A stretch of 64,000 nt of DNA from Pristiophorus japonicus. Taxonomy: Eukaryota. Below, piece by piece: positions 2,445 to 64,000 of this stretch. A model generated the notes under the pieces. That model was not told the origin of the DNA and did not search any database. It saw nothing but the letters and a program-made list of their open reading frames with translations. Made by a program: the position numbers and the translations under genes. The first letter of the stretch is position 1, and every line of letters begins with the position of its first letter. The stretch is from contig NC_091979.1 of the NCBI RefSeq assembly GCF_044704955.1, positions 25,606,001 through 25,670,000 on the forward strand, written 5' to 3'.

Positions 2445-3740
2445 TGTCAGCCATGGCTCAGTGGGTAGCACTCTCTCGGAATCAGACATTTGTTGGTTCA
2501 AGCTCCACTCGAGAGACTTGCAGAACATAATCTAGGCTAACACTCCCACTGCAGTACTGAGGGAGTGCTGAACTGTAAGCGGTGCCATCTTTCGGCTGAA
2601 CTGTTAAACCGAGGCCCTCTCAGATGGACATAAAAGATCCCCTGGCACTATAAAGAAGAGCAGGGGAGTTCTTCCTCCCCCCCCCCCTAGGTGTTCTGAC
2701 CAATATTTATCCCTCAACCACCATCACTAAAAAACATAATCAGGTCATTATCACATTGCTGTTACTTGGAGCTTGATGTGCACACAAATCTTGGCAGCCA
2801 TTTTTTGTAAAAGAAAAACTTGCATTTATATAGTGCCTTTCATGACCACTTGTCCTCCCAAAGTGCTTTGCAACCAAGTGTAGTCACTGTTGTAATGTAG
2901 GAAACGTGGCAGTCAAATTGCACAGCAAGCTCCTACAAACAGCAATGAGATAATGACCAGATAATCCGCTTTTATTGTGATGTTGCTTGAGGGATAAATA
3001 TTGGCCCAGGACACCTTGGAGAACTTCCCTGCTTTCTTCAAAATGCCATGGGATCTTTTACGTCCACCTGAGAGAGTAGACCGGGAGACGGTTTAACATC
3101 TCATCCAAAAGATGGCAACTCCGACAGTGCAGCACTCCCTCAGCACTGCACTGGGAGCGTCAGCCTAGATTTTTGTGCTCAAGAGGCAAGGGTGTTACCC
3201 ACTGAGCCATGGCTGACTTTACAACAGTGACTATAATTAAAAAAGTAAATTTCATTGGCTGTAAAGCGTTTTGGGACACCCTGAGGTCTATATAAAGGCA
3301 TGTTCTTTCTTTAAATTAAAAAATAGAAATTATACAGTGCCATTAAACGATTGTGGTTGTGGGTTCAAGTCACACTCCAGGACTAGAGCGCAAAAATCTA
3401 GGTTGACTCTTCAGTGCAGTGCCGAGGGAGCACTGCACTGCCTTTCACGATCAGTGGACGTCTCAAAGTGCTTTGCAGCCACAGAAAAGAGCCCATGGTA
3501 CTATTTCGAAGAAAAACAGGGGAGTTATCGCCAGTGCCTTGGGCCAATATTTATCCCTCAACCACCATCGTTCAAAACTGATGATCTGGTCATCATCACC
3601 TTGCTGGCTGTGGGAGTTTGCTGTGCGCCAATTGGCTGCTGTGTTTCCTACATTGCAAAAGTGACTGCAGTTTAAAAAGTATTTCATTGGTTGTAAAGTT
3701 TGGGACGTCATGAGGTCTATATAAATGCAAGTTTCTTTCT
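2445..3740. mobile_element. Cluster of tRNA-derived Deu-domain SINEs (SacSINE1-like)
   Basis: tRNA head TGGCTCAGTGG...GGTTCAAG, Deu core GGTGCC.TCTTTCGG.TGA..GTTAAACCGAGG and L2-like tail GCTATATAAATGCAAG. Copies at about 2445-2800 (+), 2815-3217 (-), 3350-3740 (+). Confidence 0.8.
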
Positions 3741-3741
3741 T

Positions 3742-3887
3742 TAAATTAAACAGTATAAATTTAACAATGGCATTAAACAGGATAAATTAAACACTGCCAT
3801 TAAACAGTGTCAATTAAACAGTCCATTAAACAGTGTAAATTAAAGACTGCCATTAAACAGTATAAATGAAATAGTGCCATTAAACTA
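3742..3887 (+). repeat. AT-rich minisatellite built from ATTAAACA subunits (about 13/26-bp period)
   Basis: GCCATTAAACAGTRTAAATTAAACA repeated 5-6 times. Confidence 0.8.
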
Positions 3888-3894
3888 CATTGTG

Positions 3895-3990
3895 GGACGC
3901 TCTGGTCACGTGAGGTGGGGTGCCGCCGCCCAGGCCGGCCTCACGTGACGTCTGCGCGACGCCGGCGTGCGTCAAAGAGGCGTGGCCAAA

Positions 3991-4021
<31 letters not shown>

Positions 4022-4330
4022 CACAGGCTGACAATCGTGAAGCTGATGGACGTGCGGGGCGGACCAATCAGAAACGGGAGCGCCTCCGCGTGGGGTCACA
4101 GGCGCCCGCCAATCAGGACAGGAGGCCGGGCAAAGGCGGCGGGGCTTGGGTCTTTGTCCCGCCCTGCCGCCCGCCCGCCTCGCTGAGCCGTCAAGTTTGG
4201 CCGGGCGGCGATTGAGGAGGGAAGAGTGGGGGACCGGGAGCGCGGGGGTTAAAGTGGTGTGAGTGTGAGTTGCTGCCGTCGCCGCCGCCGTCGCGGGGCG
4301 GGCGTCCGTCCGTCCGACGGTCGGTCGAGG
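3895..4330 (+). promoter_or_regulatory. EAF2 CpG-island promoter and 5' UTR
   Basis: GC/CpG-rich; E-boxes CACGTG at 3907-3912 and 3942-3947 (TCACGTGA context); CCAAT at 4064 and 4109; GC boxes; (AG)n at about 3990-4020. Confidence 0.85.
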
Positions 4331-4433
4331 ATGAACGGGGGAACTCTCTCGCAGTTTGACAGCAAGGAGCACGTTTTGAAGCTGGGCGGCAGTTTCGACC
4401 GGCAGCCCAAGTGCGGCTTCCACACGATCAGAT
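4331..4433 (+). CDS. EAF2: ELL-associated factor 2, coding exon 1
   Basis: ATG at 4331 (aggATG) gives MNGGTLSQFDSKEHVLKLGGSFDRQPKCGFHTIR, matching the EAF N-terminus. Donor T|GTGAGT at 4434; 103 nt, phase 1. Confidence 0.95.
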
Positions 4434-5099
4434 GTGAGTGGAGTTGTTGTTGTTGTTGTTGTTGTAGGAGCAGCAGCAGCAGCGCCCCCCAGCCGTGGGA
4501 GGAGTGAAGTGCAGGGGAAGGGGGTGAAGCCCCCCAATGGGCAAGGTTGGTTGAGCAGGAGGTCCCTGGCACCATAGGGGCAGGTCCAGGTCCAGAACCA
4601 GGGGTTCACAGTCTAAGGATAAGGGGTAGGCCATTTAGGACCGAGTTGAGGAGAAACTTCTTCACCCAGAGTAGTTGTTAACCTGTGGAATTCCCTACCG
4701 CAGAGAGCTGTTCATTGGGATAGATTCAAGAGAGAGTTAGATGTGGCCCTTGCAGCTGAAGGGATCAAGGGGTATGGAGAGAAAGCACGAACGGGGTACC
4801 AAGGTGATGATCAGCCCATGATCTTATTTGAATGGCCTACTCCTGCACCTACTTTCTATGTTTCCAACCTGTTCCGTCATTCAATGAGATCACGGCTGGA
4901 TCTGCCACCACCAAAGGGGGAATTTCTAATCCTGAGGGTCGTAAATCTGTGGAATTTTCTGCCCCCAGAGAGCTGTGTAAGGCTGGGCCATTGAATATAT
5001 TTTAAGGCGGAGATGGATCGTTGAGCAATTTTAAGGGAATCCAGGGTTTATGGGGAGTGGGCAGGGAAGTGGAGCTGAGCCCAAGATCAGATCAGCCAT

Positions 5100-6179: not shown

Positions 6180-7140
6180 TTTGGCCCAAACGCCTCAATA
6201 CCTTTTTGGTTGAAAAATATCTATCAAATCTCGGATTTTAATTTAAACAATCGAGCATCAAGTGCCGTTTGCAAGAGAGTTCCAAACTGCTACCACCCTT
6301 TGTAGGAGTGGTTCCTAATCGCACTCCTGAAAGATCTGGCTCTAATTTTTAGGCTATACCCCCCTAGTCCTAGATTTTCTAACCAACAAAAATAATTTCT
6401 CTCTATCGACCCTATCTGTTCCCCTTAATATCTTGAAAACTTCGATCAGATCACCCCTTATCCTTATAAATTCTAGGGAATGCAATCCTAATTTGTTTAA
6501 TCTCTCCTTGTAATTTAACCCTTGAAGTCCGGGTATCCTTCTGGTAAACCTACGCTGCACTCCTTCTAAGGCCAATATATCCTTCCTACAGTGTGGTGCC
6601 CAGAACTGCTCATTGTACTCCAGGTGTGGTCTAACCAGGGTTTTGTATAACTGCAGCATAACTTGTTTTCTAGTTCCATAGATATAAAGCCAGAATTCTG
6701 TTAGCCTTTTTGACTTGGAGAAGTGGAAGAAGTACTTTGGTACACAATAACATAAGAATTAGCAGGGGTAGGCCTTGCGGCCCCTTGAGCCTGCTCTGCC
6801 ATTCAAAGAGATCATCCCCATATCCTTTGATTTCCCCAGAGTACAAAATCTGTGATTTCCCCAGAGCACAAGATCTATCCGTCTCAACCTTGAATATACC
6901 CAACGATTCAGCATCCACAGTTCTCTGAGGCAGAGAATTCCAAAGATTCACAACCCTCTGAGTGAAGAAATTCCTCCTCATCTGTGTCTTAAATGGCCGA
7001 CCCCTTATCCTGAGACTCTGCCCCCTAATTCTAGACTCTCCAGCCAGGGGGAACCAACCTCTCAGCATTTACCCCCCCCCCCCCCTCAGAATCATATCAT
7101 GAGATCACCTCTCATTCTTCTAAACTCCAGAGAGTATAGG
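6180..7140 (-). mobile_element. Two CR1 3' fragments
   Basis: ORFs 6354-6659 and 6670-7068 give RPHLEY and FFTQRVVNLWN. Confidence 0.85.
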
Positions 7141-8750: not shown

Positions 8751-10539
8751 CAGCTAGAGCAGCCATAAGGGTATTATAGTTGGGCTCAGAGCCCAGGCTT
8801 AGGGGGAGGAGTCCTTCTCCGAATGACTTGCTGTTCAGTGTGGCCTTTCAGAAAATACTCCTTGTGGCAAATGTCCTTGGGTAATTGCTGTCTTGTAACC
8901 CCCCCTTCCCCCGCTCCCGAGATCTCTGAGCTCCTCTCATTCCGCCCTCTTGAACATCCCCGATTTTAATCGCTCCATTGTTGGCAGCCCTGCCTTCAGC
9001 TGCCTCGGGCACTAAGCTCTGGAACTCCCTCCCTAAACCTCTCCGCCTCTCTCCTCCTTTTTAAGACGCTTTTTAAAAGCTATCTCTCTTTCACTAATAT
9101 CTCCTTTATGTGGCTCAGTGTCAAATTGTGTTTTATAACGCGCCTGTGGAAATGCTTTGGGGCGTTTCACTACGTTAAAGGCGCTATATAAATGCAAGTT
9201 GTTGTTGTTGTAATTCAATAAGATGTACCCACTATGCTCAAAATGCTGCACAAAATTAATCCAAGTCCCCCCCACCACAAACGTCAGTCTAATGATGAAT
9301 AATTGATCTAATTCAGTGATGCAGGAGCTGATAGGGACTTAACAAAAAAATGACACTGATACCTGTGGTTAGATTAGGACAAGTGGCTGTGTACTTCTCC
9401 TCTTAGGCAGTCCCTCGGAGTCGAGAATGACTTGCTTCCACACTAAATATGAGTTCTCAGGTGACTGAGACCGATGCGGGACCTACAGTCTCTGTCTCAG
9501 GTGGGGCAGACGGTGGTTGGAGGGGCGGGTGGGTGGGGAGCCCAGTTTGCTGCTCACTCCTTCCGCTGTTTGTGCTTGGCTTCTGCGTGCTCCCGACGAA
9601 GAGACTCGAGGTGTTCGGCGCCCTCCCGGATGCTCTTCCTCCACTTTGAGCGGTCTTGGGCCAGGGACTCCCAGATGTCGGTGGACTTTTTCAAGGTGGC
9701 TGTGAGGGTGTCCTTGAAGCGTTTCCTCTGCCCACCTGGGACTTGCTTGCGGTCCACCGGCAGTCTGACGATCACGTTATCCAGGATACTGTCAAATTAT
9801 AGCCTTGTGGCAGAAACTGATTTTGCTCAAGTGGCTCGTTTCAAACTGGCTTCTTGTCTTATTGAATTCGGGGTGGGGGGGGCGGGGAAGAGAGAGAGAG
9901 AGAGAGAGAGTGGGGGAAATGTGCCTCCTCCAGACTGAGTTTTGCCCTCTGTGCGACTCTAGCACACGATGCCAGCTGAGGCTCGGGACTGGCTCACGCG
10001 GAGCCATGTGTCGAATCGATTTCCGGGCGAACAGGAGCTGGATCCGAGGTAGCTTCAGAGAACACGGCTCGAGGGGACTGTGGAGTCACGGGACCGTTTT
10101 CAAACTAAATTTGCCACCAAGGCACATTAGGACTCAAAAGGGAGTTAGATGTGGCCCTTACGGCTAAAGGGATCAAGGGGTATGGAGAGAAAGCAGGAAT
10201 GGGATTCTGAAGTTGCATGATCAGCCATGATCATATTGGACGGTGGTGCAGGCTCGAAGGGCTGAATGGCCTACTCCTGCACCTATTTTCTATGTTTCTA
10301 TTGGTCAAGTAGGTAGGTTTTAAGGAGCATCTTAAATCTGGAGAGAGAGGTGGAAAGATTTAAGAAAGAAAGACTTGGATTTATATAGCGCCTTTCACGA
10401 CCAGCGGGCGTCTCAAAGTGCTTTACAGTCAATGAAGTTCTTTTGGAGTGTAGTCACTGTTGTAATGTGGGAAAGGGCGGGAATTCCAGAACTTGGGGCC
10501 TAGGCAGCTGAAGGCATGGCCACCAATGGAGCGATTTCG

Positions 10540-15255: not shown

Positions 15256-18042
15256 CTCAGCCTCTGGAGTGGGACTTCAACCTGCGGACTCGGGGCGAGA
15301 GTGCTCCTAACACAGCACAGCAAGAGGTAATTTGTCCCCTTGTGACTGTGTCTGTCAGTACGTTGCTAGAGAAATCCAAAACTAATCCCACTGCCCTGCT
15401 CTCTCCCCATAGCCCTGCAGCTTCCTTTGCTTAAATATTTGTACGGTTTTCCCTTAAAAGGCGCAGTGGTCTCTGCTTCAACCTCTGCCTGTGGCAAAGC
15501 AACAACCCTCTGCGTAAAGCGACTTCTAACCCCTCCTCGCTCTCGGTGGCCATGTTAAATCGTCACCGACTCCCCCAAGCAGAGGAAACAGACATGTACC
15601 CCACCCTCTCCCCATTCACTCTATCAAAACTCTGTGTCATTTTAAAAACAGCTTTAAAATCTTCTCTCTGGCCTACTCCTGTTCCTATAAAGACAATCAG
15701 ACCCTTGATCTTGTTCAATTAGATCATGTCTGATCTGTATCTCAACTCCATCTACCCACTGTGGTTCCGAAACCCTTCATAACCTTGCCTAACAAAAATC
15801 TTATCAATCTCAGTTTTGTTATTTTCAATTGACCCCCAGACTCATCAGGTTTTTGGGGGAGAGAGTTCCAGATTCCCACTACGCTGTGTAAAGAAGTGCT
15901 TCCTGACGTCACCCCTGAACGGCCCAGCTCTAATTTTAAGGTGATGCCCCCTTGTTCTGGACTCCCCCCACCAGAGGAAATAGTTACCATAGAAATTTAC
16001 AGCTCAGAAGGAGGCCATTCCGGCCCATCGTGTCCGCACCGGCCGACAAAGAGCCGGTCAGCAGCCCTGAAGGTTACATATAAACCTATGAACAATGGCG
16101 GAAAGGCAAAGAGCATCCAGCCCAACCAGTCCACCCCACACAACTGCGACACCCCTTATACTGAAACATTCTACACTCCACCCCAGCCGGAGCCATGTGA
16201 TCTCTTGGGAGAGGCAAAAACCAGATTTAAAAACCCAGGCCAATTTAGGGAGAAAAAAATCTGGGTAAATTCCTCACCGACCCATCCAGCTGCTCGAAAC
16301 TAGTCCAGATCACCCTGGCCGTATTCTATTCCCTGCAGTACTTACCATTATATCTGCGACAGCCAACAAAAGGTCATCCAGTCTAATCCCAATTACCAGC
16401 TCCAGGTCTGTAACCCTGCACTTCAAGTGCCCATCCAACCATCTCTTAAAAGTGGTGAGGGTTTCTGCATCCACCATTCTTCCAGGCAGCGAGTTCCAGA
16501 TCCCCCACAACCCTCTGCGTCAAGAAGCCCCCCCCTCAAATCCCCTCTAAACCTTCCACAACCACCTTAAAACTATGCCCCCTCGTAATGGACCCCTCCA
16601 CCAATGGAAATAGGCCCTTACTATCCACTATGTCCAGGCCCCTATCATCTCCTTTAAACATTAGATCACCACCTTCTGTGCTCTAGTGGAAATGGCCCCG
16701 ATATCTTCAATCTCTCTCCATCTGGTGAGGGACTGGACAGAGTGCAGTGCCGACAGAATCGTATTCCAGCAAGGATATTGTGCCTTCGGGAGGAGAATAA
16801 AATGAGCAAATTCCTCAATTCCATCCATCTTGGAAACTGTTGCTTTGATGCTGGGAATTTGTGAGCTAAACTAAATACAGCCTAATCCTTCTGGAATATG
16901 TTACCGGCTGGTGTGGTCGGTGCTGACTCTGCAGCCTTTACGCGAGAGCTGGAGCGGTTCTTGACTGGGGCAGAGATCGGGTCATATAGAAGGTCTTTAT
17001 AGAGAACACTGGGTCTGTGAGATCCCCTGGACTGGTTTCCATAGCCTGAAAGGGTCGGAGAGGAATATTCCAATATTCCTGTGTATTTTTTTTCCCTTAT
17101 TGTCCCTGGCTTTTTCGCCTCTCCCGGGAAGTACAAGTAAGAAAGAAAGACTTGTATTTACATAGTGCCTTTCACGACCATTGGACGTCTCGAAGCGCTT
17201 TAGAGCCAATGAAGTACTTTTGGGGTGTAGTCACTGTTGTAATGTGGGAAACACGGCAGCCAATTTGCTCACAGCAAGCTCCCACAAACAGCAATGTGAT
17301 CATGACAAGATAAGGGGTAAGCCATTTGGGACCGAGATAAGGAAAAATTTCTTTACTCAGAGAATTGTGAACCTGTGGACTTCTCTACCGCAGAAAGTTG
17401 TTGAGGCCAGTTCGTTAGATATATTCAACAGGGAGTTAGATGTGGCCCTTACGGCTAAAGGGATCAAGGGTATGGAGAGAAAGCAGGAATGGGGTACTGA
17501 AGTTGCATGATCAGCCATGATCATATTGAATGATGGTGCAAGCTCGAATGGCCTACTCCTGCACTTACTTTCTATGTTTCTATAATCTTTTTGTTATATT
17601 GATTGGGGATAAATACTGGCCCAGGACAGCGGGGATAACTCCCCTGCTCTTCTTCGAAATAACACCATGGAATCTTTTACGTCCACCTGAGCGAGCAGAC
17701 GGTTTGACGTTTCATCCGAAAGACGGCACCTCCGACAGTGCAGTGCTCCCTAGATTTTTGTGCTCGAGTCCCTCGAGTGGGGACTTGAACCCACAACCTT
17801 CTGACTCAAGAGGCGAGTGTACTACCCACTGAGCCACGGCTGACACAAGGGAGAGGTGAACAGTGTTTAGTCACGATGCTGTGGCCACCATGGTGTGGAG
17901 CAGGCTCGATCGATCAGCTGGTCTTTTCCTGCCTGTCAATTTTGTATGTAATTCACCTGAAACAGAAAAATGTTCACCAGCTCAGGATCTTCCCCCCCCC
18001 CCCCCACCCCTGCAATTTCCACCACCCTCTCTTTCTCCAAAT

Positions 18043-21984: not shown

Positions 21985-23645
21985 ATCATCATCATAGGCA
22001 GTCCCTCCAAACGAGGATGGCTTGCTTCCACGCCAAAAAAGGATGAGTTCACAGGTGTTTCAATGAAGGACCTAATATTCCAATCCTGAACTACATCGAG
22101 AAGGGTGGAAGATTCCACACGAGATTAATGTGCAAAGTTAAAGCACATGGGATTGGGGGTAGTGTCCTGACGTGGATTGAGAACTGGTTGTCAGACAGGA
22201 AGCAAAGAGTAGGAGTAAATGGGGACTTTTCAGAATGGCAGGCAGTGACTCGTGGGGTACCGCAAGGTTCTGTGCTGGGGCCCCAGTTGTTTACATTGTA
22301 CATTAATGATTTAGACGAGGGGATTAAATGTAGTATCTCCAAATTTGCGGATGACACTAAGTTGGGTGGCAGTGTGAGCTGCGAGGAGGATGCTATTAGG
22401 CTGCAGAGTGACTTGGATAGGTTAGGTGAGTGGGCAAATGCATGGCAGATGAAGTATAATGTGGATAAATGTGAGGTTATCCACTTTGGTGGTAAAAACA
22501 GAGAGACAGACTATTATCTGAATGGTGACATATTAGGAAAAGGGGAGGTGCAACGAGACCTGGGTGTCATGGTACATCAGTCATTGAAGGTTGGCATGCC
22601 GGTTAAGAAAGCAAATGGCATGTTGGCCTTCATAGCGAGGGGATTTGAGTATAGGGGCAGGGAGGTGTTGCTACAGTTATACAGGGCCTTGGTGAGGCCA
22701 CACCTGGAGTATTGTGTACAGTTTTGGTCTCCTAACTTGAGGAAGGACATTCTTGCTATTCACCAGACTGATTCCCGGGATGGTGGGACTGACCTATCAA
22801 GAAAGACTGGATCAACTGGGCTTGTATTCACTGGAGTTCAGAAGAATGAGAGGGGACCTCATAGAAACATTTAAAATTCTGACGGGTTTAGACAGGTTAG
22901 GTGCAGGAAGAATGTTCCCAATGTTGGGGAAGTTCAGAACCAGGGGTCACAGTCTAAGGATAAGGGGTAAGCCATTTAGGACCGAGATGAGGAGAAACTT
23001 CTTCACCCAGAGAGTAGTGAACCTGTGGAATTCTCTACCACAGAAAGTAGTTGAGGCCAATTCACAAAATATATTCAAAAGGGAGTTAGATGAAGTCCTT
23101 ACTACTAGGGGGATCAAGGGGTATGGCGAGAAAGCAGGAAGGTGGTACTGAAGTTGCATGTTCAGCCATGAACTCATTGAATGGCGGTGCAGGCTAGAAG
23201 GGCCGAATGGCCTACTCCTGCACCTATTTTCTATGTTTCTAAGATTCCTATGTGTGGATTTTTTTTAACATGTGGTGGGCATTGCACAACAGCCAGCAAA
23301 CGGGCTTGACACAGCTAGGTCTTGGTCCAATGGCGAGGGTTATCCAAGACTGGAGACTAGCTCTGCTGCACGGACCTAGTGCGCGCACACATCGCGGTGC
23401 AGGCTGGGCCCGTGCTGCCCCTGGGCCCCGATCACATCCCTCCACAGTCTCTCGCCGCTCCTGCTATATATGCCCACACTCCAATCACCGACCTGACCTT
23501 GATGACGTCACTCTTCGCTGCCGCCACCCTCCTGATCCAGCTCGCGCTGCTACCTGAAGTGGCAGGCTTCCATGCCGCTCCTAGGCCTCCGCTCCTTTTA
23601 TAGCCCCAACCTGCCGCTGGTGTTCTCGCGCAGGTTGGGGGCCTC
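21985..23645 (-). mobile_element. Non-autonomous RTE-tailed short retroelement interrupted by CR1
   Basis: Shares the 3' end GGAAGCAAG...GAGGGACTGCCT(ATG)n with RTE LINEs but has a different body. Related copies at about 51780-52090 and 54410-54835. Confidence 0.65.
22117..23240 (+). mobile_element. 5'-truncated CR1 of the young subfamily, with 8-bp TSD
   Basis: RT C-terminus nearly identical to 43800-44960. TSD AAGATTCC at 22109-22116 and 23241-23248; it splits an RTE-tailed short element. Confidence 0.92.
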
Positions 23646-30463: not shown

Positions 30464-33016
30464 GTATGTGGTGTGATCTAAAACATTAAAAACTTAAGAA
30501 TTGGGAGCAGGAGTAGGCCACTCGAGCCTGCTCCGCCATTCAATGAGATCAGGGCTGATCTTTAACCTCAACGGGAGCACGGTAGCATAGTGATTACATT
30601 ACTGGATTAGTAATCCAGAGGCCTGGACAAATGGTCCTGGGGATGAGTTTAAATCCCACCACGGCAACGGGGGGGGGGGGGGGTAAACTTAAATTCAAAT
30701 AGTTAAATAAATTCAGGAAGGCGGCTGGACACCGATTTTCTCAAAGGCAATTGGGGATGGGCAATAAACGTTGGCCTTGCCAGCCACGTCCACAACTCAT
30801 GAATGAATAAAACAAAAATCCAATTTTCCACCCGATCCCCATATCCCTTGGTGCCAAGAAGCTAGCGATCTCTTCCTTGAATATACTCAAAGACTGAGCC
30901 TCCACAGCCCTCTATGGTAGAGAATTCGTAAGATTCACAACTCTGAGTGAAGAAATCTCTCCTCGTCTCAGTCCTAAATGGCCGACTCCTTACCCTGAGA
31001 CACTCAGCATCTAACTACCCTGTCAAGCCGCCTTAAGATTTTTTTATATTTCAATAAGATGACCTCTCATTCTTCGATACTCCACACAATAAAGGCCCAG
31101 TGTACTCAATCTCTCCTCATTGGATAATCCTCTCAACCTAGGAATCAATCTGTTTTCTCTCCTCTCCAACGCACACCAACACGCGCACACCTTCTCCCTC
31201 AACAGATCCTCCTATTCTTTTCTCCCTTGTCTGCTTATCTAGCTTCCCCGATATAATTACATAATTACCATATGTAATTAGCATAATTACCATACGTAAT
31301 TAGCAAAGCCCTATTCGGGCAATTCTTGACATCATCTGGCCTAGGTCTGGCTTTGTTTATTGTGCAACTAACAGACATTGATCGGATCATTGAATCTTGT
31401 CGATCAGAGGGAGGTGCAACATGCGGCCTTTCTGCAGCTTGACGGCACGGCCATCCAGAGGGAGGTGGCGCTGCCGGTGACTCCATGTTAGTTATTTTTG
31501 TCGGCCGACTGCCAGGTCAGGCCGACAATTATGGCCGCAGGTTCGGCTGGGCCGCCAACAGGCAGCCTGGCACCCCCTCTTGGATGGTCCAGCCAAAACT
31601 ATCCCTGGTGGCCCAATGTTTGCCACTAAAGTGGTTGCAATGTTCGCAGAGGCTCTCCCCTTTAACTGAAGGGGAGGGACATTGTGACACGCAGCGCGAT
31701 TACGTCATCAGCGCGGCACTGATGACTCTGAGCATAGGCCACTTTGACCCGCCCCCACTCCCGCCCCGATGACAAGGCCGCTTCAGCCCCGCTTCAAAAA
31801 AAAAAGGCATAAAGTGCTGATTTCTCCCGATTTGGCCGCCCATGCTTCGGGGCGGATGGAACACATCGAAAACGGTAGATGCGACATGTTTCAGGCGGTG
31901 GCAATTTCGGCCCCATGGTATTTTACTACGTTAATGTCAGAAGATAACTAGTGTGTTGTCCTTTTTACATCTCAGACCTTGGTTCAAATCCAGCCCAGTA
32001 ATGTAAAAGAAAGAATGATTTGCATTTATATAGCGCCTTTCATGACCACCGGATGTCCCAAAGCGCTTTACAGCCAATGAGGTACTTTTTGAAGTGTGTA
32101 GTCACTGTTGTAACATGAGTAATGGCGGGGGGGGGGGGGAGGGGTGGGGGGGGGAGGTTTAGAGAAGATATGAGGGAAAATTTCTTCACCCAGAGGGTGG
32201 TGAGGGTCTGGAACTCACTGCCTGAAAGGGTGGTAGAGGCAGAAATTATCACCCCATTTAAAAAATACTTGGATGTGCACCTGAAGTGCCGTAACCTACA
32301 GGGCTACGGACCAAGAGCTGGAAAGTGGGATTAGGCCGGATAGCTCTTGGTCGGCCGGCGCGGACACGATGGGCCAAAATGGCCTCCTTTCTTGTTGTAA
32401 ATTTCTATGATGATCTGATTGCGATTGATTACAAGTGCAGGATATGGGCAACCAGTTTGTCGGAAAGCCTGTTTCTCCTGTTATGCGAACCCTTTTGCTT
32501 CTATGTGTGTCATTGTTCGGGGGCATACCTGATCAAAAGAACCTGGCAGAACTCCAGTAATTGAGCAGTGCTACAAGGGTAGGCAATTGAGATTAAAGAT
32601 CTGCTGTGAACCTCAACCACCTGCTGCAATATGAAACCTTTCAAAAGGGAATTGGATAAGTACCTGAAGGAAAAGACATTTGCAGGGCCACGGGGAAAGG
32701 GCGGGGGGAGTAGGACTGGCTGAGGTGCTCTTGCAGAGAGCCAGCACGGGCTCGACGGGCCGAATGGCCTCCTTCTGTGCTTTAAACGTTCTATAATTAA
32801 CCATTGAAGTAGATTGAACACTTGAAGTGGAGTGAGTAAAGCCAATTTAAGCAATTTGAATCCGTCCTTTCCATATAAAATTTGAACTATCTTTTGGACT
32901 CTTACTTAATCAACATTAATATTCATTCTCTTCCACCAATCACTCCTATTTTCCCTCCTCCTCAACTGAAGGTGCTGTGAAAGAAAAAAAAGAAAGACTG
33001 GCATTTATATAGCCCA

Positions 33017-53597: not shown

Positions 53598-56117
53598 AAG
53601 GTGGCCATTCAGACCTCTGCTGGCTTGTTCCATAGAATATACAGCACAGGAACAGTTCATTCACCCCAACTAGTCTGTGCTGGTGCTTATGGCTCATTGG
53701 AGTATCCTCCTATTCCATGTGCCTCATCCCAACCTATCTGCTTCCTTTTCTCTCGTGTGTTCGTCCAGTTTCTTCCTGAAAGTATCCAAGCTATTTGCCT
53801 CAATCACTTCCCATGGCAGTGAGATCCACACTCCAACCACTCTCTCGGCCAAGAAATCTGACCCTCTCTCCCACACTGGATTCACTAGCAACCATCCTGA
53901 TCTATCTGAAAGAACTTAATCCAATTAGTCTCACTGCTCTGTAGCCCGGCAAATTTTTCCCTTTTGGAATCCCAACTCGTTGCATAAGGGACACTTTTTT
54001 AGTTTCGAATATTCATTGTGAGCGTCTGAACAAAATGCAAATGTTGAAGTGGCTGGAAGAGGACAAGGCCTAGGAACCAGATGATCTGCACACACATACA
54101 TTTTATTTAAAATGGTCACATTCTGTGGCAGGTATCATTTAGGCGTGGCTCAGTGGGTAGCACTCTCGCCTCCGAGTCAGAAGGTTGTGGGTTCAAGTCC
54201 CACAACAGAGACCTAAGCACACAAATCAAGGCTGACACTCCAGTGCAGTGCTGCAGGTTTAGTTTAGGTTTAGTGCAAGATGGCCCCCCGGGGTGGCAGC
54301 TCCCTAGGGAGCTCTGCTGAACAACTTTATCCCTGGCCATCTGTTGCAATCTTACACCCTATCCCAATGGCTGCTGGCTGCCGCTCCTCTGGTGGAGTAC
54401 CTCTGCAAGGTACAGCGCGAGCTGGTGCAGGAGGGTGACGGCAGCGAAGAGCGACGTCATCAAGGTCCAGGTGGGTGATTGGAGCGTGGGCAGGTACAGC
54501 AGGAGCGGCGAGGTCGGGGCGAAGGACTGGCAAGAGATTGTAGAGGGATGTGATCGGGGCCCAGGAGAGACGAGGGCCCAGGGCCAGCCCACCCTGCAAT
54601 ATGTGTGCGCACTAGCTCCGTGGTCGCCAGTCGCCTTGGTTAACCCTTGCCACTGGACCAAGACCTAGCTCTGTCAAGCCCGTGTGGTGGCTGGTGTGCA
54701 ACGGCCACCACATGTTAAAAAAAAATCCATGCACAGACATCTTCAGGATGTAGTTCAGGACCTGGAATATTTGGTCCATCATTGAAACACCTGTGAACTC
54801 ATCCTTTTTTGGCGAGGAAGCAAGTCATCCTCGTTTCCTCGACTCCATCCCACAGCATGCTACCCGCCACCACCTCAGCAAAATCACAGCCCTGCACGAG
54901 GTAGAAAAGGCCATCCGTCAGCTGAAGAACAAGACATCAGGAGCAGATGAAAATCCCGCCGAGGCACTAAACTATGGCGGTGAAGCACTACTGGCTCGAA
55001 TGCATGAACTCATCTCTCTCCTCTGGAAGGAGAGCATGCCAGGAGATCTCAGAGACGCTGTAATCATGATGCTTTTCAAGAAAGGGGACAAGTCCAACTG
55101 CGGTAGAGGAATTTCCCTGGTGTCAGCCACAGGGAAAGTCATCGCAGGAATCCTCCTCAGTCATCTTCTCCCTGTGGCTGAAGAGCTCCTCCCAGAGTCG
55201 CAACACAGATTCTGTCCACTAAGGGGTAAAACGGACATGGTCTTCACTCCACGGCAACTACAAGAGACATTCATTCATTCATATATAGGCAGTCACTCAA
55301 AATCGAGGAAGACTTGTTTCCACTCTAAACGTGAGTTCTCAGGTGACTGTACAGTCCAATACGGGAATTACAGTCCCTGTCACAGGTGGGACAGACAGTG
55401 GTTGAAGGAAAGGGTGGGTGGGGAGTCTGGTTTGCCACACGCTCCCTCCGCTGCCTGCACTTGTTTTCTGCATGCTCTCGGCGATAAGACTCGAGGTGCT
55501 CGAGGTTACACAGCCAGATAGGGGATGTGTGACCAACAGGAAGAGCAGTGGAAGGAAGGTAGTGCAGGGGTCCCCTGTGGTCATCCCCCTGCAAAACAGA
55601 TACATCGCTTTGGGTACTGTTGACTCTTCAGGGGAGGGCAGCAGCAGCCAAGTCCATGGCACCTTGGGTGGCTCTGCTGCACAGGAGAGCCGGAAAAAGA
55701 GTGGGAGAGCGATGGTGATGGGGAATTTTATTGTAAGGGAAATAGGCAGACGTTTCTGCGACCGCAACCGAGACTCCAGGATGGTATGTTGCCTCCCTGA
55801 TGCAAGGGCCAAGCATGTCTCGGAGCGGGTGCAGGACATTCTGAAAAGGGAGGTTGAACAGCCAGTTGTCGTGGTGCATATAGGTACCAATGATATAGGT
55901 AAAAAAATGGGATGAGATTCTACAAGACGAATTTGGGGAGCTAGGAGCTAAATTTAAAAAGTAGGATCTCAAAAGTAATAATTTCAGGATTGCTACCAGT
56001 GCCACGTGTTAATCAGAGTAGGAATCGCAGGATAGCTTGGATAAATACGTGGCTTGAGGAGTGGTGCAGAAGGGAGGGATTCAAATTCCTGGGACATTGA
56101 AACCGGTTTTATGGGAG

Positions 56118-57240
56118 GTGGGGGCGGGGAGGGAGGGAGAGAGAGAGAAGTGGGGGGCGTGGGGAGAGAGAGAAGCGGGGGGGGGCAGCGGGGCGGGGAC
56201 GGAGAGAAGCGGTGGTGGCAGGGGGGCAGGGAGAGAGAGAAGTGGAGGGGTGGTGAGGGAGAGAAGTGGGGGGGGCGGCGGGGCGGGGAGAGAGAGAAAT
56301 GGGGGGTCGAGGAGGGAGAGAGAGAAACGGGGAGGGAGAGAGAAGCAGGGTGGAGGGGAGAGAGAGAGAAACGGGTGAGCGGGGAGGGAGAGAGAGAGAG
56401 AGAGAGAGCGAAGCGGGGGAGGGGGGGAGAGCGAGCTTGTGGGGGGAGGGGGGGAGAGAGCGAGCGAGCTTAGGGGGGAAGAGAGAACGAGCTTGGGGAG
56501 GTGGGGGAGAGAGAGTGAGTTTGGGGGGGGGAGAGAGTGAGAGCTGGAGGGAGGGGAGAGAGAGAGCTTGGGGGGGAGAGTGAGCGAGAGCATGGGGGGG
56601 AGGGGAGAGAGAGAGAGCTTGGGGGGGAGGAGAAAGAGAGCTTGGGGGGGGGGGAGAAAGAGAGCTTGGGGGGGGAGAGAGAGAGAGAGAGAACTTGGGG
56701 GTGGGGGGTGGAAGAGCGAGAGAGAGCTTGGGGGGGGGGAAGAGAGAGAGAGAGCTTGGGGGGGGGGGAAGAGAGAGAGAGAGAGCTTGGGGGAGAGAGA
56801 AAGAGAGAGCTGGGGGTGAGAGAGAGAGCTTGGGGGGGAGAGAGAGAGAGCTGGGGGGGGAGAGAGAGAGAGAGACCTTGGGGGGGAGGGGAGAGAGCTT
56901 GGGGGGGCGGGGGGCGGGGGGCAGAGAGAGAGAGCTTGGGGGGGAGGGGAGAGAGCTTAGGGGGACGGGGGGGAGGTGAGAGAGCTTGGGGGGCGGGGGG
57001 AGAGAGAGCTTGGGGGTGGGGGGAGAGAGAGAGAGAGCTTGGGGGGAGAGAGAGAGAGAGAGCTTTGGGGGGTGGGGTGAGAGAGCTTTGGGGGGTGGGG
57101 AGAGAGAGAGAGAGCTTGGGGGGAGAGCGAGAGAGCTTTGCGGGGTGGGGAGAGAGAGAGAGAGCTTTGGCGGGGGGGGGGGGGGGGTGAGGGGAGAGAG
57201 CTTGGGGAGCCGGGGGGGGGGGGTGGGTAAACTGGGGTAA
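56118..57240 (+). repeat. Polypurine G/GA-rich minisatellite, longer paralog of 35205-35930
   Basis: Many (GA)nGCTTGn units. Confidence 0.9.
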
Positions 57241-57849
57241 GGGATGGCTTTGGGAGGGATGGCCTTCCTCTCGAGGGGCCAAATGGCCTACAGTTGCTCC
57301 TACTTCTTACATGATCAGGTTACTTCGTAGACATTTATCAGGTCGGAGGCATCGGCCCGCAATTTCTGGGCCAACGGGTTTGTATCCAGCAACAGCAGAC
57401 AAAGTGCTCTGTGACTGATTGGTGGGTTCGGATGAAAGGTCGTGGACTAGAAACGTTAACTCTGTGTTTCCCTCTCCAGTGCTGCAGAGTGCTATTTGTC
57501 ATTCAAGCTCACACACGCACACACACACTTCTATCTTGTGTGTTCAATACTGAACAGGGGCCAGTGGATTTAGGAGACTGGGTGAATCTATATGATAATG
57601 AATCGAGTTACATGTCACATCAGTGTTGAAAGCACTCCTGGGTCATGTCACAAAAAAAAACCCAGCAATGCCATAAAACAAAAGTTGTTGCAATGGGTTC
57701 CTTCCTTGCTGGAGTTTGTTGACCAGGAAGTTTGCAAAGTACTGGCTCGATTCCAGCGTTGTTTTTTTTTAAGCCAGTTGGGTATGCGGGTATGCAGACA
57801 TGCCACGGCTGCCAGAGCCTTCAGTAGGTTGACAGTGTGAAGAACTGCG

Positions 57850-58095: not shown

Positions 58096-59759
58096 GTAAA
58101 AAAAAACCCCAAACTATTAACCTCAACTAATCAGGCGCGGAAAGTTGAATTTTTCCTGCTGTTTTTTTGCTCGATGCAAAACTCCTATTGCACTTTCATC
58201 TCCTGCACTTTGCCCATGGCAAGAAAGACTTACATTTATATAGCGCCTTTCACGACACCCAGGACGTTTTTGGAGTATAGACTGTTGAAACGTGGGAAAC
58301 GCAGCAGCCAATTTGCATACATCAAGCAGCAATGTGATAATGACCAGATAATCTGTTTTTGCTATGTTGATTGAGGGATAAATATTGGCCCCAGGACACC
58401 GGGGATAACTCCTCTGCTCTTCTTCGTAATACTGCCACGGGATCTTTTACGTCCACCTGCGAGAGCAGACGGGGCCTTGGTTTAACGTCGCATCCGAAAG
58501 ACAGCACCTCTGACAGTGCAGCACTCCCTCAGCACGGCACTGGGAGTATCAGCTTGGATTTTTAAATGCTCAAGTCCTTGGACATAAGAACATAAGAAAT
58601 AGGAGCAGGAGTAGGCCATCTGGCTCCTCAAGTCTGCTCCGCCATTCAATAAGATCATGGCTGATCTGATCATGGACTCAGCTCCACTTCCCCGCCCGCT
58701 CCCCATAACCCTTTACTCCCTTATCGCTCAAAAATCTATGTATCTCCGCCTTAAATATATTCAATGACCCAGCCTCCACAGCTCACTGGGGCAGAGAATT
58801 CCATAGATTTACAACCCTCAGAGAAGAAATTTCTTGTCATCACAGTTTTAAATGGGCGTCCCCTTATTCTGAGACTATGTCTCCCAGTTTTAGTTTCCTC
58901 TGTGAGTGGAAATATCCTCTCTGCATCCACCTTGTGGCGGAGACTGTGGTTCTCGTATGGGGCTGGCCAGTCGCCTAGGAACTCATTTTGAGAGCGGAAG
59001 CAAGACTTCCTCGATTCCGAGGGACTGCCTATGACGACGATGATGATGATGTTGGGAAAATGCTATAAAAATTACCTTGAATGTTGCATCAAAATAGATG
59101 TTCAGCAGTTAGGCAGAATTGTGAGAAACCGAAAGAGCTGTTGTTAATTAAAACCATGACAGATTGGGCCCAAGTTTCGGGTGGAATTGCTCCTAGTTTT
59201 TTGGAGCAACTAGTTTAGTTTGGAGTATGTTAGAAATTGCAATTCTCGGATATTAGTTTGCTCCAGTTCTAGTGAGTTAGTTTAGGTTGGCTTTAGGTAA
59301 GGTACTTTTTTTTCAAAAGGGGGTGTGTCCAACCACTCAAGTTTTGCAAGTTTTGGCAGTGAAAACTTACTACAAACTAACTTAGAATAGAGTAAGTGTC
59401 CACTTTTGTAAGTTCTGAAAAACCTTACCTAGAGTTAAGTTTAGTGCAGGCACAGCCAGAGAAGGTGGATGGGAAGCATTAAACACAAAGGACACATCAA
59501 CATCACAACAGCGGGGGGTAAGGGAAGTTAGAGGATTTTCCATAAACACCTTCACAACAACATTAAAGAAGCAAAGTACATTTAAAGCACCAAGCACTAA
59601 ACAAAGCAGTACATTTAAAGCACTAAGCACTAAACGAAGCACAAAAAGTAATAAGCAATTAATTAATACAAAATAGAAGTCCTACCTTTATGTGAAGGGA
59701 AGGTGTCTCTCACTGTAGTGTCTCTCTCTCTCTGTATCTGACAGTGAGGAGTGCGCGGG

Positions 59760-60240
59760 GGTGGGGTGTGTGTGTGGTGTGTGTCTGTATATGTGTGGGA
59801 GTGGGGGGGGTGGGGGGTGTGTGTATGTGTGGGAGTGGGGGGGGTGTGTGTGTATGTGTGGGAGTGGGGGGGGGGGTGTGGGAGGGGGTGTGTGTATGTG
59901 TGGGAGTGGGGGGGGGGGTGTATGTGTGGGAGTGGGGGGGGGGTGTATGTGTGGGAGTGCGGGGGGGTGTGTATGTGTGGGAGTGGGGGGGGGGTGTGTG
60001 TATGTGTGGGAGTGGGGGGGAGTGTGTATGTGTGGGAGTAGGGGGGGGTGTATGTATGTGTGGGAGTGGGGGGGAGTGTGTATGTGTGGGAGTAGGGGGG
60101 GGGTGTGTGTATGTGTGGGAGTGGAGGGTGGTGTGGGAGGGGGTGTGTGTGTGTGTGTGTGTGTGGGAGTGGGGAGGGTGGGATAGGGGGTGTGTGGGGG
60201 GGGTTGGATGTGGGGGGGGTGGGTGTGTGTGGGGTGGGGG
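59760..60240 (+). repeat. G-rich minisatellite, about 24-bp unit TGTATGTGTGGGAGTGn
   Basis: Direct tandem units. Confidence 0.9.
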
Positions 60241-60371
60241 AGAGGCTGGAAGGAGGCAACCCTGCTCTCTCCTCCGGCCCTTCGATCATTGAATGCCCCC
60301 CAACCCACGCTCTTCCATCCATGTTGCCACGCTACCCCCCTCCGCCCCCCCCAGTTGCCACGCTCCCCCCC

Positions 60372-60605
60372 CCCCCCCGGTACCCACGCCCCCCCCGGTA
60401 CCCATGCCCCCCCCTGGTACCCATGCCCCCCCGGTACCCACGCCCACCCCGGTACCCATGCCCCCCGGTACCCACGCCCCCCCCGGTACCCATGCCCCCC
60501 CGGTACCCATGCCACCCCCGGTACCCAGCCCCCCCCCTTGGTACCCATGCCCCCCCGGTACCCACGCCCCCCGGTACTCATGCCCCCCGGTACCCACGCA
60601 CCCCC
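60372..60605 (+). repeat. C-rich minisatellite, about 18-19-bp unit CnGGTACCCAYG
   Basis: About 12 tandem units, each with the GGTACC palindrome or a variant. Confidence 0.9.
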
Positions 60606-61080
60606 GAGCCATTGCGCAGGCGCACATGCTCCAACGCACCTGCGCAACGCTGCCAGCACTGAGAAGAAGGCATGATCCCTAGCCCCGCCACCCTGCAGGC
60701 AGGCCCCTCCCCAGGGAGACTACGCCACGCCACGGCCCAGGAGGACCGGAGAATTGCTGTAGAATATTCCGGCGCACCTTCGAGCCCAGGCAGGTCACAT
60801 AAGTCTCAGAGATGCGCCGTTTTCACCAGATGCCGAAACTTGGGCCCATTACGTGGTGGTGGGTGGGGAGGGGTTTCATACTCAGCTGTATATACCAAAG
60901 ATCTTCTGCATTCAGTTCCTTTCCTGTTAAGTAAATGACAAAAATTAGCAATCTTCAGCATAGTTTTGTGCAGAAATCAAAGACAAATTTTCAGCATAAA
61001 CGATCAGTTTGGAGCTTATGAGATTCTTGTATGGAGGGGATTCAACTCAAATCAATTAACGTTCATCGTGGATAGGCAGC

Positions 61081-61615
61081 ACATGGGAACATGGGGTGTG
61101 CGGGCAGGGGTGGGCCGTCCGCCCCCTCGAGCCTGCTCCGCCATTTAGTGCGGTCGTGGCTGGTCCGGTCGTGGACTCGGGTCCGCTTTCCTGCCCGTTC
61201 CCCATGGCCTCTTGGTCCCTTGTCGGTCGGGAGGCTGTCTAGCTCCGTCATAGGTTTGGTCGGTGTCCTGGCTTCCACGGCTCTCTGGGGCGGCGAGTTC
61301 CGCGGATTTGCGCCCCTCTGGGGCGGGGTGGGGAGTTTCCTCCTCGTCTCAGTTTTGGATGGGCGGTCACTTGTTCTGGAATTGTGCCCCCTGATTCTGG
61401 TCGCCCCTATCAGTGGGGGCGTCCTTTCTGCGTCCGCCTTGTCTGGCCCCCTCGTGATCTTGTGCGTTTCGGTGGGATCGCCTCTCATTCTTCTGTGTTC
61501 CGGTGGGTGGAGGCCCGGCCTCCTCAACCTTTCCTCATGGGTCGGCCCACTCATCTCTGGGGTCGATCTGGTGAGCCTCCCCTGGGCTGCCTCCGGGGTG
61601 GGTATATGCTTTCGT
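61081..61615 (-). mobile_element. CR1 3' fragment with A-to-G hypermutation on the + strand
   Basis: Colinear with 13422-13940 and 58582-58935, but most + strand A residues are G. Confidence 0.9.
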
Positions 61616-61619
61616 ATAT

Positions 61620-61790
61620 CCAACGTGGACCATTTCCCATACCTCGGGAGCCTCTCATCAACAAGAACAGAAATTGAGATTCAACACCGCCTCCAGTGCG
61701 CCAGCGCAGCCTTCGGCCACCTGAGGAAAAGAGTGTTTGAAGACCAGGCCCTCAAATCCACCACCAAGCTCATGGTCTACAGGGCTATAG
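61620..61790 (+). mobile_element. RTE-clade LINE internal fragment cut by the downstream CR1
   Basis: NVDHFPYLGSL...EIQHRLQCASAAFGHLRKRVF...KLMVYRA. Confidence 0.85.
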
Positions 61791-64000
61791 CAGTCGGCGA
61801 GAGGCGGGAGCAGCGTGGAGAGGCCTATAAAAGGCCCAGCTTGTGCAGCTCCAGCCGGGAGAAAAAGCAGAAAAGAAGTAGAAAGGAATCAAAAGGTGAC
61901 GTCACAGCCAAAGGGGCAAGTGATTGGCTGGTGATTGGTAAGTAGTTTTTCTTTTTCTTTTTTATATCAGTAAGTAACCTGTTAACAGTGTTGTCATCAA
62001 TTTAAGTGTATCTAAGGGTTAAGTCATGGCAGGGGAGCTCAGTCACCTGATATGCTCCTCCTGTACCATGTGGGAACTCAGGGACACTTCCGGTGTCCCT
62101 GACGACTACGTGTGCGGGAAGTGTATCCGCCTCCAGCTCCTGACGGACCGCGTTGCGGAATTGGAGCTGAGGGTGGATTCACTCTGGAGCATCCACGATG
62201 CTGAGAATGACATGAGTAGCACGTGTAGCGAGTTGGTCTTACCGCAGGAGAAGGGTCCACATCCAGCTAGGGAATGGAAGACCAGCAGGAAGAGTAGTGC
62301 AAGGAAGGTAGTGCAGGGGTCCCTTGTGGTCATCCCCCTGCAAAACAGATACACTGCTTTGAGTACTGTTGAGGGGGATGACTCATCAGGGGAGGGCAGC
62401 AGCAGCCAAGTTCATGGCACCGTGGCTGGCTCTGCTGCACAGGAGGGCAGGAAAAAGAATGGGAGAGCGATAGTGATAGGGGATTCAATTGTGAGGGGAA
62501 TAGATAGGCGTTTCTGCGGCCGCAAACGAGACTCCAGGATGGTATGTTGCCTCCCTGGTGCAAGGGTCAAGGATGTCTCGGAGCGGGTGCAGGACATTCT
62601 AAAAAGGAAGGGAGAACAGCCAATTGTCGTGGTGCACATTGGTACCAACGACATAGGTTAAAAAAAGGGATGAGGTCCTACGAAACGAATTTAAGGAGCT
62701 AGGAGCTAAATTAAAAAGTAGGACCTCAAAAGTAGTAATCTCGGGATTGCTACCAGTGCCACGTGCTAGTCAGAGTAGGAATCGCAGGATAGCGCAGATG
62801 AATACGTGGCTTGAGCAGTGGTGCAGCAGGGAGGGATTCAAATTCCTGGGGCATTGGAACCGGTTCTGGGGGAGGTGGGACCAGTACAAATCGGATGGTC
62901 TGCACCTGGGCAGGACTGGAACCAATGTCCTAGGGGGAGTGTTTGCTAGTGCTGTTGGGGAGGAGTTAAACTAATATGGCAGGAGGATGGGAACCAATGC
63001 AGGGAGACAGAGGGAAACAAAAAGGAGACAAAAGCAAAAGACAGAAAGGAGATGAGGAAAAGTGGAGGGCAGAGAAACCCAAGGCATAGAACAAAAAGGG
63101 CCACTGTACAGCAAAATTCTAAAAGGTGTCTTAATGCAAGGAGTATCCGTAATAAGGTAGATGAATTAACTCTGCAAATAGATGTTAACAAATATGATGT
63201 GATTGGGATTACAGAGACGTGGCTCCAGGATGATCAGGGCTGGGAACTCAACATCCAGGGGTATTCAACATTCAGAAAGGATAGAATAAAAGGAAAAGGA
63301 GGCGGGGTAGCATTGCTGGTTAAAGAGGAGATTAATGCAATAGTTAGGAAGGACATTAGCTTGGATGATGTGGAATCTATATGGGTAGAGCTGCAGAACA
63401 CCAAAGGGCAAAAAACGTTAGTGGGAGTTGTGTACAGACCTCCAAACAGCAGTAGCGATGTTGGGGAGGGCATCAAACAGGAAATTAGGGGTGCATGCAA
63501 TAAAGGTGCAGCAGTTATAATGGGTGACTTTAAAATGCACATAGATTGGCCTAACTAAACTGGAAGCAATACGGTGGAGGAGGATTTCCTGGAGTGCATA
63601 AGGGATGGTTTTCTAGACCAATATGTCAAGGAACCAACTAGGGGGGAGGCCATCTTAGACTGGGTGTTGTGTAATGAGAGAGGATTAATTAGCAATCTCG
63701 TTGTGCGAGGCCCCTTGGGGAAGAGTGACCATAATATGGTGGAATTCTGCATTAGGATGGAGAATGAAACAGTTAATTCAGAGACCATGGTCCAGAACTT
63801 AAAGAAGGGTAACTTTGAAGGTATGAGGCGTGAATTGGCTAGGATAGATTGGCGAATGATACTTAAGGGGTTGACTGTGGATGGGCAATGGCAGACATTT
63901 AGAGACCGCATGGATGAACTACAACAATAGTACATTCCTGTCTGGCGTAAAAATAAAAAAGGGAAGGTGGCTCAACCGTGGCTAACAAGGGAAATCAGGG
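61791..64000 (+). mobile_element. 5'-intact CR1 LINE of the same family, disrupted, running off the window end
   Basis: ORF1 62026-62974 frameshifted near 62660. ORF2 has a deletion near 63125 and stops at about 63558 and 63930. Confidence 0.93.

What the first reader, a model, noticed from the sequence alone, without database searches (positions are those of the whole stretch)
61081..61615. Genomic fossil of ADAR-type A-to-I hyper-editing in an antisense CR1 fragment
Seen: this segment aligns to ordinary CR1 copies in the window, but most A on the + strand is G while T is largely untouched. Examples: ACATGGGAACATGGGGTGTGCGGGCAGGGGTGGGCCGT (61081) versus ACATAAGAACATAAGAAATAGGAGCAGGAGTAGGCCAT (58582, 13422); CAGTGGGGGCGTCCTTTCTGCGTCCGCCTTGTC (61411) versus CAGTGGAAACATCCTCTCTGCATCCACCTTGTC (13738). 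Surviving A residues mostly follow G or C. Known: ADAR disfavours a 5' G, inosine is copied as G, and APOBEC editing gives G-to-A or C-to-T instead. Inference: an RNA carrying antisense CR1 in a duplex was hyper-edited, reverse transcribed and fixed in the germline. The strand asymmetry argues against GC-biased conversion.
Basis: partly seen in the sequence, partly recalled or inferred. Interest (0 to 1): 0.9.

Follow-up and report, generated by a model that had tools for sequence, protein, structure and literature searches.

The report
RNA-editing fossil in germline DNA
Two thirds of the A letters on one strand of this jumping-gene fragment have become G, likely because the RNA-editing enzyme ADAR rewrote a double-stranded RNA that was then copied back into inherited DNA; two similar copies elsewhere in the genome still have their unedited source hairpins.

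Summary
Confirmed and larger than reported. Window 61081-61616 is the first of three pieces of a 1.96-kb antisense CR1 LINE fragment (the others lie just past the window, split off by unedited nested insertions). A>G affects 297 of 453 A; T>C 18 of 621; editing follows the ADAR 5' order T~A>C>G. DNA unitigs of four runs (one sample, two alleles) carry the G pattern; the copy is single, not a subfamily. At least eight other loci carry their own A>G patterns. Three are inverted CR1 pairs edited on both arms of one strand and spared in the loop, and two have an unedited parent hairpin elsewhere with the same flanks; one is a 5.5-kb block ending at an RTE tail inside another repeat. That shows RNA-level editing followed by retroposition for those loci. 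For this copy the partner arm and parent were not found, so its route is inferred; editing of cDNA in a hybrid or in-place conversion remain possible. The scan noted this phenomenon before on other DNA, in this genome and others. Known only for retroviruses and cultured-cell retrocopies in the papers I found.

The parts
61081..61616 (+). Hyper-edited CR1 fragment, antisense on +, starting exactly at the CR1 3' tail (reference positions 3-532 from the 3' end). First of three pieces; the element resumes past the window end at 66630-67591 (ref 522-1481) and 70731-71221 (ref 1472-1963), numbering continued into G000:C3. Last ~60 nt (ref 1900-1963) are nearly unedited (1 of 8).
60873..61080 (.). 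Low-copy left flank; 81% like two other loci (L032, L033) that are not followed by CR1; no A>G excess overall (4 A>G, 3 G>A, 5 T>C, 6 C>T), though 2 of the 4 A>G lie in the last 12 nt before the CR1 tail
61621..61790 (+). 5' part of a nested, 5'-truncated RTE-type LINE (label recalled from its translation and (GAT)n tail); its 3' part lies at about 66016-66631. Unedited (A>G 4 of 128 A), so most likely inserted after the editing
   Evidence: (loose ends at 61621)
61791..64000 (+). Nested near-full-length sense CR1 of another subfamily inside the RTE (runs on to 66015): ORF1 with GDSL/SGNH-like hit (PF13472, below the curated cut-off), endonuclease PF03372; A>G and G>A balanced against the reference

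Best explanation
This is a single antisense CR1 fragment with two thirds of its + strand A changed to G, most likely a fossil of one RNA molecule that ADAR hyper-edited while it was paired with a sense CR1 and that was then reverse-transcribed by LINE enzymes and inserted into the germ line. Steps: (1) shown by sequence: one-strand A>G at 66%, ADAR-type neighbours, present in DNA on two alleles, single copy, later split by three unedited insertions. (2) Shown at sister loci: two CR1 copies in opposite orientation make a hairpin in a read-through transcript; only the stem is edited, both arms on the same strand; the multi-kb transcript with its unedited flanks is retroposed to a new site (in pair 1 primed at an RTE tail). 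(3) Inferred for this copy: the same route, with the sense partner arm lost later by deletion or supplied by another RNA, and the parent lost, unassembled or missed. (4) From established knowledge: reverse transcriptase reads inosine as G.
For: Spectrum and neighbours match the published ADAR preferences: U and A preferred, C and G less preferred 5' (PMC3113232, Results part 1); upstream G depleted (PMC5625713 passages). Loop tests: L035 sense arm 95/234 in stem vs 10/130 in loop (p=2e-12); L038 antisense arm 180/357 vs 5/103 (p=9e-20); L041 14/63 vs 5/207 (p=2e-6). In L038, sense-arm A sites opposite gaps in the partner are edited 8/41 vs 195/411 (p=5e-4). Pair 1: parent L084 and copy L035 share the arm junction and flanks; parent-to-copy A>G is 104/222 (antisense arm), 98/255 (sense stem), 6/138 (loop), 14/441 and 16/357 (flanks); the 5.5-kb block ends at an RTE (GAT)n tail and sits between two contiguous halves of another CR1 (ref 0-70 | 69-287). 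Pair 2: parent at C5:299.79 Mb and copy L038: arms 173/367 and 129/289, flanks 0/44 and 25/491. In L037 a nested RTE piece is edited too (21-26 of 41-45 A), as expected for a transcript of a genomic locus. Edited copies have many private sites (this copy vs L002: 45 shared, 45 and 16 private), so events are separate.
Against: For this copy no edited sense arm was found between window start and position 83000, and no parent by left flank, right junction, private-insertion pattern or shared non-A differences (at most 11 of 122 among 51 copies). Its left end coincides with the CR1 3' tail, as an ordinary CR1 insertion in the other direction would. A same-subfamily sense CR1 at 72150-72892 is unedited (3/108, 3/117). 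The reverse bulge test in L038 showed no drop (20/36 vs 160/321). 5'G bias alone is not significant within the window piece (p=0.095). The right end of pair 2 was not resolved. No ADAR gene or RNA of known type was examined.
Confidence: 0.76

Rival explanations
1. Ordinary CR1 insertion primed at its own tail (61081), whose first-strand cDNA (the + strand) was deaminated by ADAR while still in the RNA:DNA hybrid.
For: Left end exactly at the tail; no partner arm or parent found; ADARs can edit the DNA strand of hybrids in vitro (review PMC12925331, passage citing Zheng 2017). Six of the seven fully edited antisense arms seen start at or within 5 nt of the tail, though the query included the tail.
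Against: Cannot explain the sister loci: both arms edited on one strand, loops and flanks spared, parents present. In pairs 1 and 2 editing also starts at the tail because the stem starts there, yet the flank is parent-derived. The review says in vivo editing of retro-cDNA is unknown and the in vitro cases needed mismatches or mutant enzymes.
Confidence: 0.11
2. In-place write-back: the CR1 pair lay at this site first, its own edited transcript was reverse-transcribed and converted or repaired the locus, and the partner arm was later deleted.
For: Explains why no parent exists elsewhere; 2 of 4 flank A>G differences lie right beside the tail (weak). Parent 2 lost its hairpin centre, so such hairpins do get deleted.
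Against: Both cases that could be traced are copies at new sites with the unedited parent still present. Both alleles seen carry the edits.
Confidence: 0.1
3. GC-biased gene conversion, a G-rich CR1 subfamily, transcription-linked mutation bias, or an assembly or sequencing artefact.
For: GC rises to 60-72% in the stretch; earlier scan notes report a large family descended from one edited founder in this genome.
Against: T>C, A>C and T>G are at background; no near-identical copy; single-depth unitigs in four DNA runs; sharp boundaries at nested unedited insertions (nested CR1 7 A>G of 1011 A).
Confidence: 0.02

Closest known systems
ADAR-edited mRNA retrocopied by L1 in cultured human cells (PMC11702581, preprint; outline and passages seen)
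   Same: Clustered edits confined to inverted repeats inside a retroposed transcript (3 of 235 de novo pseudogene insertions).
   Different: Somatic, experimental, Alu hairpins in mRNA; here germline-fixed, old, CR1 hairpins in unspliced-looking transcripts, 40-66% of A edited over 1-2 kb, with parents preserved in the genome.
A-to-G hypermutated retroviruses: Rous-associated virus, avian leukosis virus, HTLV-2/STLV-3 (review PMC12925331, passages)
   Same: ADAR edits fixed in DNA by reverse transcription, near 50% of A in inverted-repeat regions.
   Different: Viral RT and viral genomes; not non-LTR elements and not shown as inherited host DNA in the passages read.
APOBEC 'DNA editing' fossils in LTR retroelements (PMC4866542, passages; PMC2873906, passages)
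   Same: Deaminase hypermutation of a retroelement preserved in a vertebrate genome.
   Different: C-to-U on cDNA giving G>A on the sense strand; here A>G on either strand of a LINE, set by RNA pairing. The word ADAR does not occur in the main text of PMC4866542.
ADAR hyper-editing of repeat RNA, including chicken CR1 and elephant-shark brain RNA (PMC5625713, passages)
   Same: CR1 3' fragments pair with each other and are heavily edited; upstream G depleted.
   Different: RNA only, transient; here recorded in DNA.

Membership tests
ADAR A-to-I hyper-editing signature | Dense A>G on one strand without matching T>C | tested here: met
   297/453 vs 18/621
ADAR A-to-I hyper-editing signature | 5' neighbour U/A preferred, C less, G least | tested here: met
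   82%, 76%, 58%, 47% over three pieces; window piece alone only p=0.032-0.095; no bias in controls
ADAR A-to-I hyper-editing signature | Confined to double-stranded RNA (stem edited, loop and flanks spared) | tested here: inconclusive
   Met at L035, L038, L041; for this copy no partner arm found
ADAR A-to-I hyper-editing signature | Dependence on ADAR catalysis; inosine in the RNA | not testable with these tools
   Needs an experiment
Retroposed (LINE-copied) transcript | Unedited parent elsewhere sharing flanks | tested here: inconclusive
   Met for L035 and L038; not found for this copy in four tests, searches score only the best 40 candidates
Retroposed (LINE-copied) transcript | 3' end at a LINE tail, inserted into a contiguous target | tested here: inconclusive
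   Met for L035 (RTE tail, split CR1 target, microhomology, no clear duplication); right end of this copy is obscured by further insertions
APOBEC-edited retroelement | G>A on the element's sense strand (C>T on antisense) | tested here: not met
   C>T 22/536 and G>A 8/268 on +
CR1-type LINE | ORF2 reverse transcriptase in the subfamily | tested here: met
   Unedited subfamily copy L104 hits RVT_1 PF00078, E=6e-13
CR1-type LINE | APE endonuclease and esterase-type ORF1 | tested here: inconclusive
   Seen in the related nested copy (PF03372 E=1e-10; PF13472 below cut-off), 70-78% like the edited subfamily; the edited fragment itself lacks these parts
CR1-type LINE | Placement in the CR1 clade by RT phylogeny or repeat library | not tested
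   No repeat library on hand; the CR1 and RTE labels are recalled
Multi-copy family from one edited founder (earlier scan notes, same genome) | Many copies sharing the same G pattern | tested here: not met
   Best other hit 79%, 80% for the third piece; pattern unique; single-depth unitig

The most novel reading that the evidence does not exclude
In this genome, LINE enzymes repeatedly retroposed multi-kilobase germline transcripts together with their ADAR-hyper-edited CR1 hairpins, so that parent-and-copy pairs are single-molecule fossil records of ancient germline RNA editing, datable by nested insertions, and RNA editing is a recurring source of heritable one-strand hypermutation (new CpGs, erased stop codons) in a vertebrate.
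Probability: 0.72. Interest if true: 0.85.

Novelty: new variant of a known kind. Interest (0 to 1): 0.78.

Why it matters
RNA editing is usually treated as non-heritable. Here edited RNA appears to have entered the germ line many times, and parent-copy pairs let one read where, how densely and with what neighbour preference ADAR acted on one RNA molecule long ago. It shows that heavily inosine-laden hairpin RNA can be reverse-transcribed through kilobases, gives a genomic screen for germline ADAR activity in species without RNA data, and is a mutation route that repeat annotation would misread as old or G-rich subfamilies. In this fragment it raised CpG from 14 to 39 and cut stop triplets from 24 to 6.

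Tried and rejected
Parent of this copy: left-flank search gave only two 81% matches without CR1; right-junction search no spanning hit; degenerate pattern only itself; 51 subfamily copies share at most 11 of its 122 non-A>G differences. L063 (90% over 71777-72079) is a small composite repeat, not the parent. The right flank 72900-73287 matches an intron at C1:79.54 Mb (86%) but that locus lacks the edited element's counterpart. Nested sense CR1 at 67591-70732 as partner arm: rejected, unedited against its own subfamily (7 of 1011). The two copies of the RTE target site differ at one A/G position, which could mean the RTE predates editing, but the duplication length is ambiguous: not used. Junction search for L038's parent failed because the parent lost that part; the flank search found it. 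Empty-site test with sequence in hand found no contiguous pair for any of 9 tests. My visual impression that L036's left flank was edited failed (2 of 55). Other A>G-skewed spots in the window (6873-7087, 16344-16643, 22601-22730, 32022-32156, 32638-32780, 56126-56388): three were inspected (16.3k, 32.0k, 56.1k) and are G-runs, low-complexity tracts or subfamily differences; the rest were not inspected. No RNA holder was listed for the stretch: no evidence either way. Literature: eight searches listed no paper on germline-fixed ADAR-edited LINE copies; most subscription papers are not in the library and I saw no supplements (Fig. S8 of PMC11702581 may bear on the comparison).

Full report
What is there. 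The + strand of 61081-61616 aligns to ordinary CR1 3' ends in antisense. Against the majority of unedited copies of the same subfamily it has A>G at 92 of 136 A, T>C at 4 of 146 T, G>A 2 of 79, C>T 7 of 164. The element continues past the window: the next genome stretch holds two more pieces, 66630-67591 and 70731-71221 in continued numbering, that together cover reference positions 3-1963. Between them lie an RTE-type LINE (A>G 4 of 128), a sense CR1 inside it, and another sense CR1 that is unedited against its own subfamily (7 of 1011 A; 0 of 13 of its relatives edited). The CR1 and RTE labels are recalled; Pfam gives RT, endonuclease and a weak GDSL hit for these elements. Over the three pieces A>G is 297 of 453 and T>C 18 of 621; by original 5' neighbour T 100/122, A 92/121, C 75/129, G 30/64; by 3' neighbour G 60/80, A 85/120, C 68/99, T 84/137. 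Five unedited controls show 38/1838 and no bias. In the window piece alone the 5'G effect is not significant (p=0.095).

It is DNA, and single. Unitigs of 827-828 bp bridge the unique flank, the edited piece and the RTE junction: identical in X1 and X2, two C>T differences in X3 and X4. I read these as two alleles, both edited; all four runs are one sample, possibly the assembly's source. The best other genomic match is 79% (40 of 5209 candidates scored) and a degenerate pattern over a private insertion matches only here. So it is not a member of the multi-copy edited family that earlier scan notes describe in this genome.

It is one of many. Of the 29 other loci fetched (a sample biased towards G-rich copies), 6 are A>G-edited along their antisense strand, 1 locally, 1 on the sense strand, 21 are not. 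Copies found with unedited queries were unedited: 0 of 17 segments in 12 loci (2 further loci fell outside the closeness filter); 1 of 29 loci shows an excess. Edited copies keep many private sites (odds ratios 1.0-4.9), as expected from separate events with shared site preference.

The pairing rule. L035 and L038 are antisense-then-sense CR1 pairs, L041 sense-then-antisense. Both arms are A>G on the same strand, and editing stops where pairing stops: 95/234 vs 10/130, 180/357 vs 5/103, 14/63 vs 5/207. Opposite gaps in L038's antisense arm the sense arm is spared (8/41 vs 195/411); the reverse test showed no drop (20/36 vs 160/321), which fits only if those gaps arose later (inferred). Same-strand editing of both arms rules out cDNA deamination and sense-RNA editing for these loci.

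The write-back. A junction search found L035's unedited parent 60 Mb away on the same contig. They share 5.5 kb: A>G parent-to-copy is 104/222 and 98/255 in the stem, 6/138 in the loop, 14/441 and 16/357 in the flanks. The block ends at an RTE (GAT)n tail on the edited strand and lies between two contiguous halves of another CR1; homology stops there. The parent's two extra segments look like later insertions, not introns. The parent's arms are 80% alike, so the hairpin came from two separate insertions. A flank search found L038's parent on C5: arms 173/367 and 129/289, flanks 0/44 and 25/491, a shared internal deletion; this parent has since lost its hairpin centre, and the right end of the block was not resolved.

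What stays open for this copy. No edited sense arm lies within 1-83000; no parent was found; its left end is the CR1 tail; its right end is buried in more insertions and an intron-derived piece. I therefore give 0.76 to edited RNA retroposed to this site, 0.11 to ADAR acting on first-strand cDNA of a normal CR1 insertion, 0.10 to in-place conversion by the locus's own edited RNA, 0.02 to conversion bias, subfamily or artefact.

Known context. ADAR 5' preferences: PMC3113232 (outline and Results part 1); upstream-G depletion and CR1 editing in RNA: PMC5625713 (passages), PMC2873906 (passages). Edits fixed by reverse transcription: retroviruses (review PMC12925331, passages) and 3 of 235 L1-made pseudogenes in cultured cells (PMC11702581, passages). 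Genomic deaminase fossils: APOBEC in LTR elements (PMC4866542, passages). Eight searches (listings only) showed no paper on germline-fixed ADAR-edited LINE copies; the library lacks most subscription papers. The scan itself has noted the phenomenon before on other DNA (12 notes in at least 10 genomes; 18 in this genome, one mentioning a source hairpin with its retrocopy; I cannot tell whether it is one of my two pairs). These notes gave me paper leads and are not counted as support.

Verdict. Observation confirmed, interpretation supported; a new variant of a known kind (deaminase edits fixed by reverse transcription), here ADAR, non-LTR and germline. Interest 0.78.

Noticed in passing
window 60830-61640, runs X6 and X8: Two small runs of unrecorded kind hold many 37-66-nt contigs matching G-rich parts of the fragment (summed depth 146-2204 at 61474-61557) where the DNA runs hold about 3-14, while an unedited stretch is tenfold deeper in DNA. 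If these are RNA, CR1 antisense RNA is being hyper-edited today; the run type is not on record, so only a hint.
   Followed up: partly
window 61076-61945, + strand: Editing removes stop codons: a 289-codon open frame runs through the edited piece into the RTE frame; no Pfam hit. Probably a by-product.
   Followed up: partly
72900-73287 past the window end; L109 (C1:79.54 Mb): A 390-bp copy (86%) of an intron that starts 5 nt after the splice donor of an exon whose translation looks like PLAA/Doa1 (name recalled); perhaps a retroposed intron piece.
   Followed up: partly
L042 (C24:9.67 Mb) 3647-4779: CR1 copy edited on its sense strand only in its 5' half (ref 600-1147), 5'G strongly avoided (3/99); no partner found nearby.
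   Followed up: partly
L117 (C3:196.58 Mb) and L022: Further candidates: L117 A>G 36 vs G>A 7 and T>C 8; L022 T>C 25 vs C>T 13.
   Followed up: no
L037 4610-4970; L038 (reverse) 9108-9448: An RTE piece nested in an edited CR1, and a second antisense CR1 2.3 kb beyond the L038 hairpin, are edited as well: the edited RNAs were long transcripts of repeat nests.
   Followed up: partly
L124-L127, L134-L136, L139-L141: Ten near-identical CR1 copies with the same breakpoints, mostly on contig C23: a multiplied segment.
   Followed up: no
window 56100-57250 and 59740-60600: Strongly skewed G-rich or C-rich tandem tracts; they give false hits in A/G-collapsed searches.
   Followed up: partly
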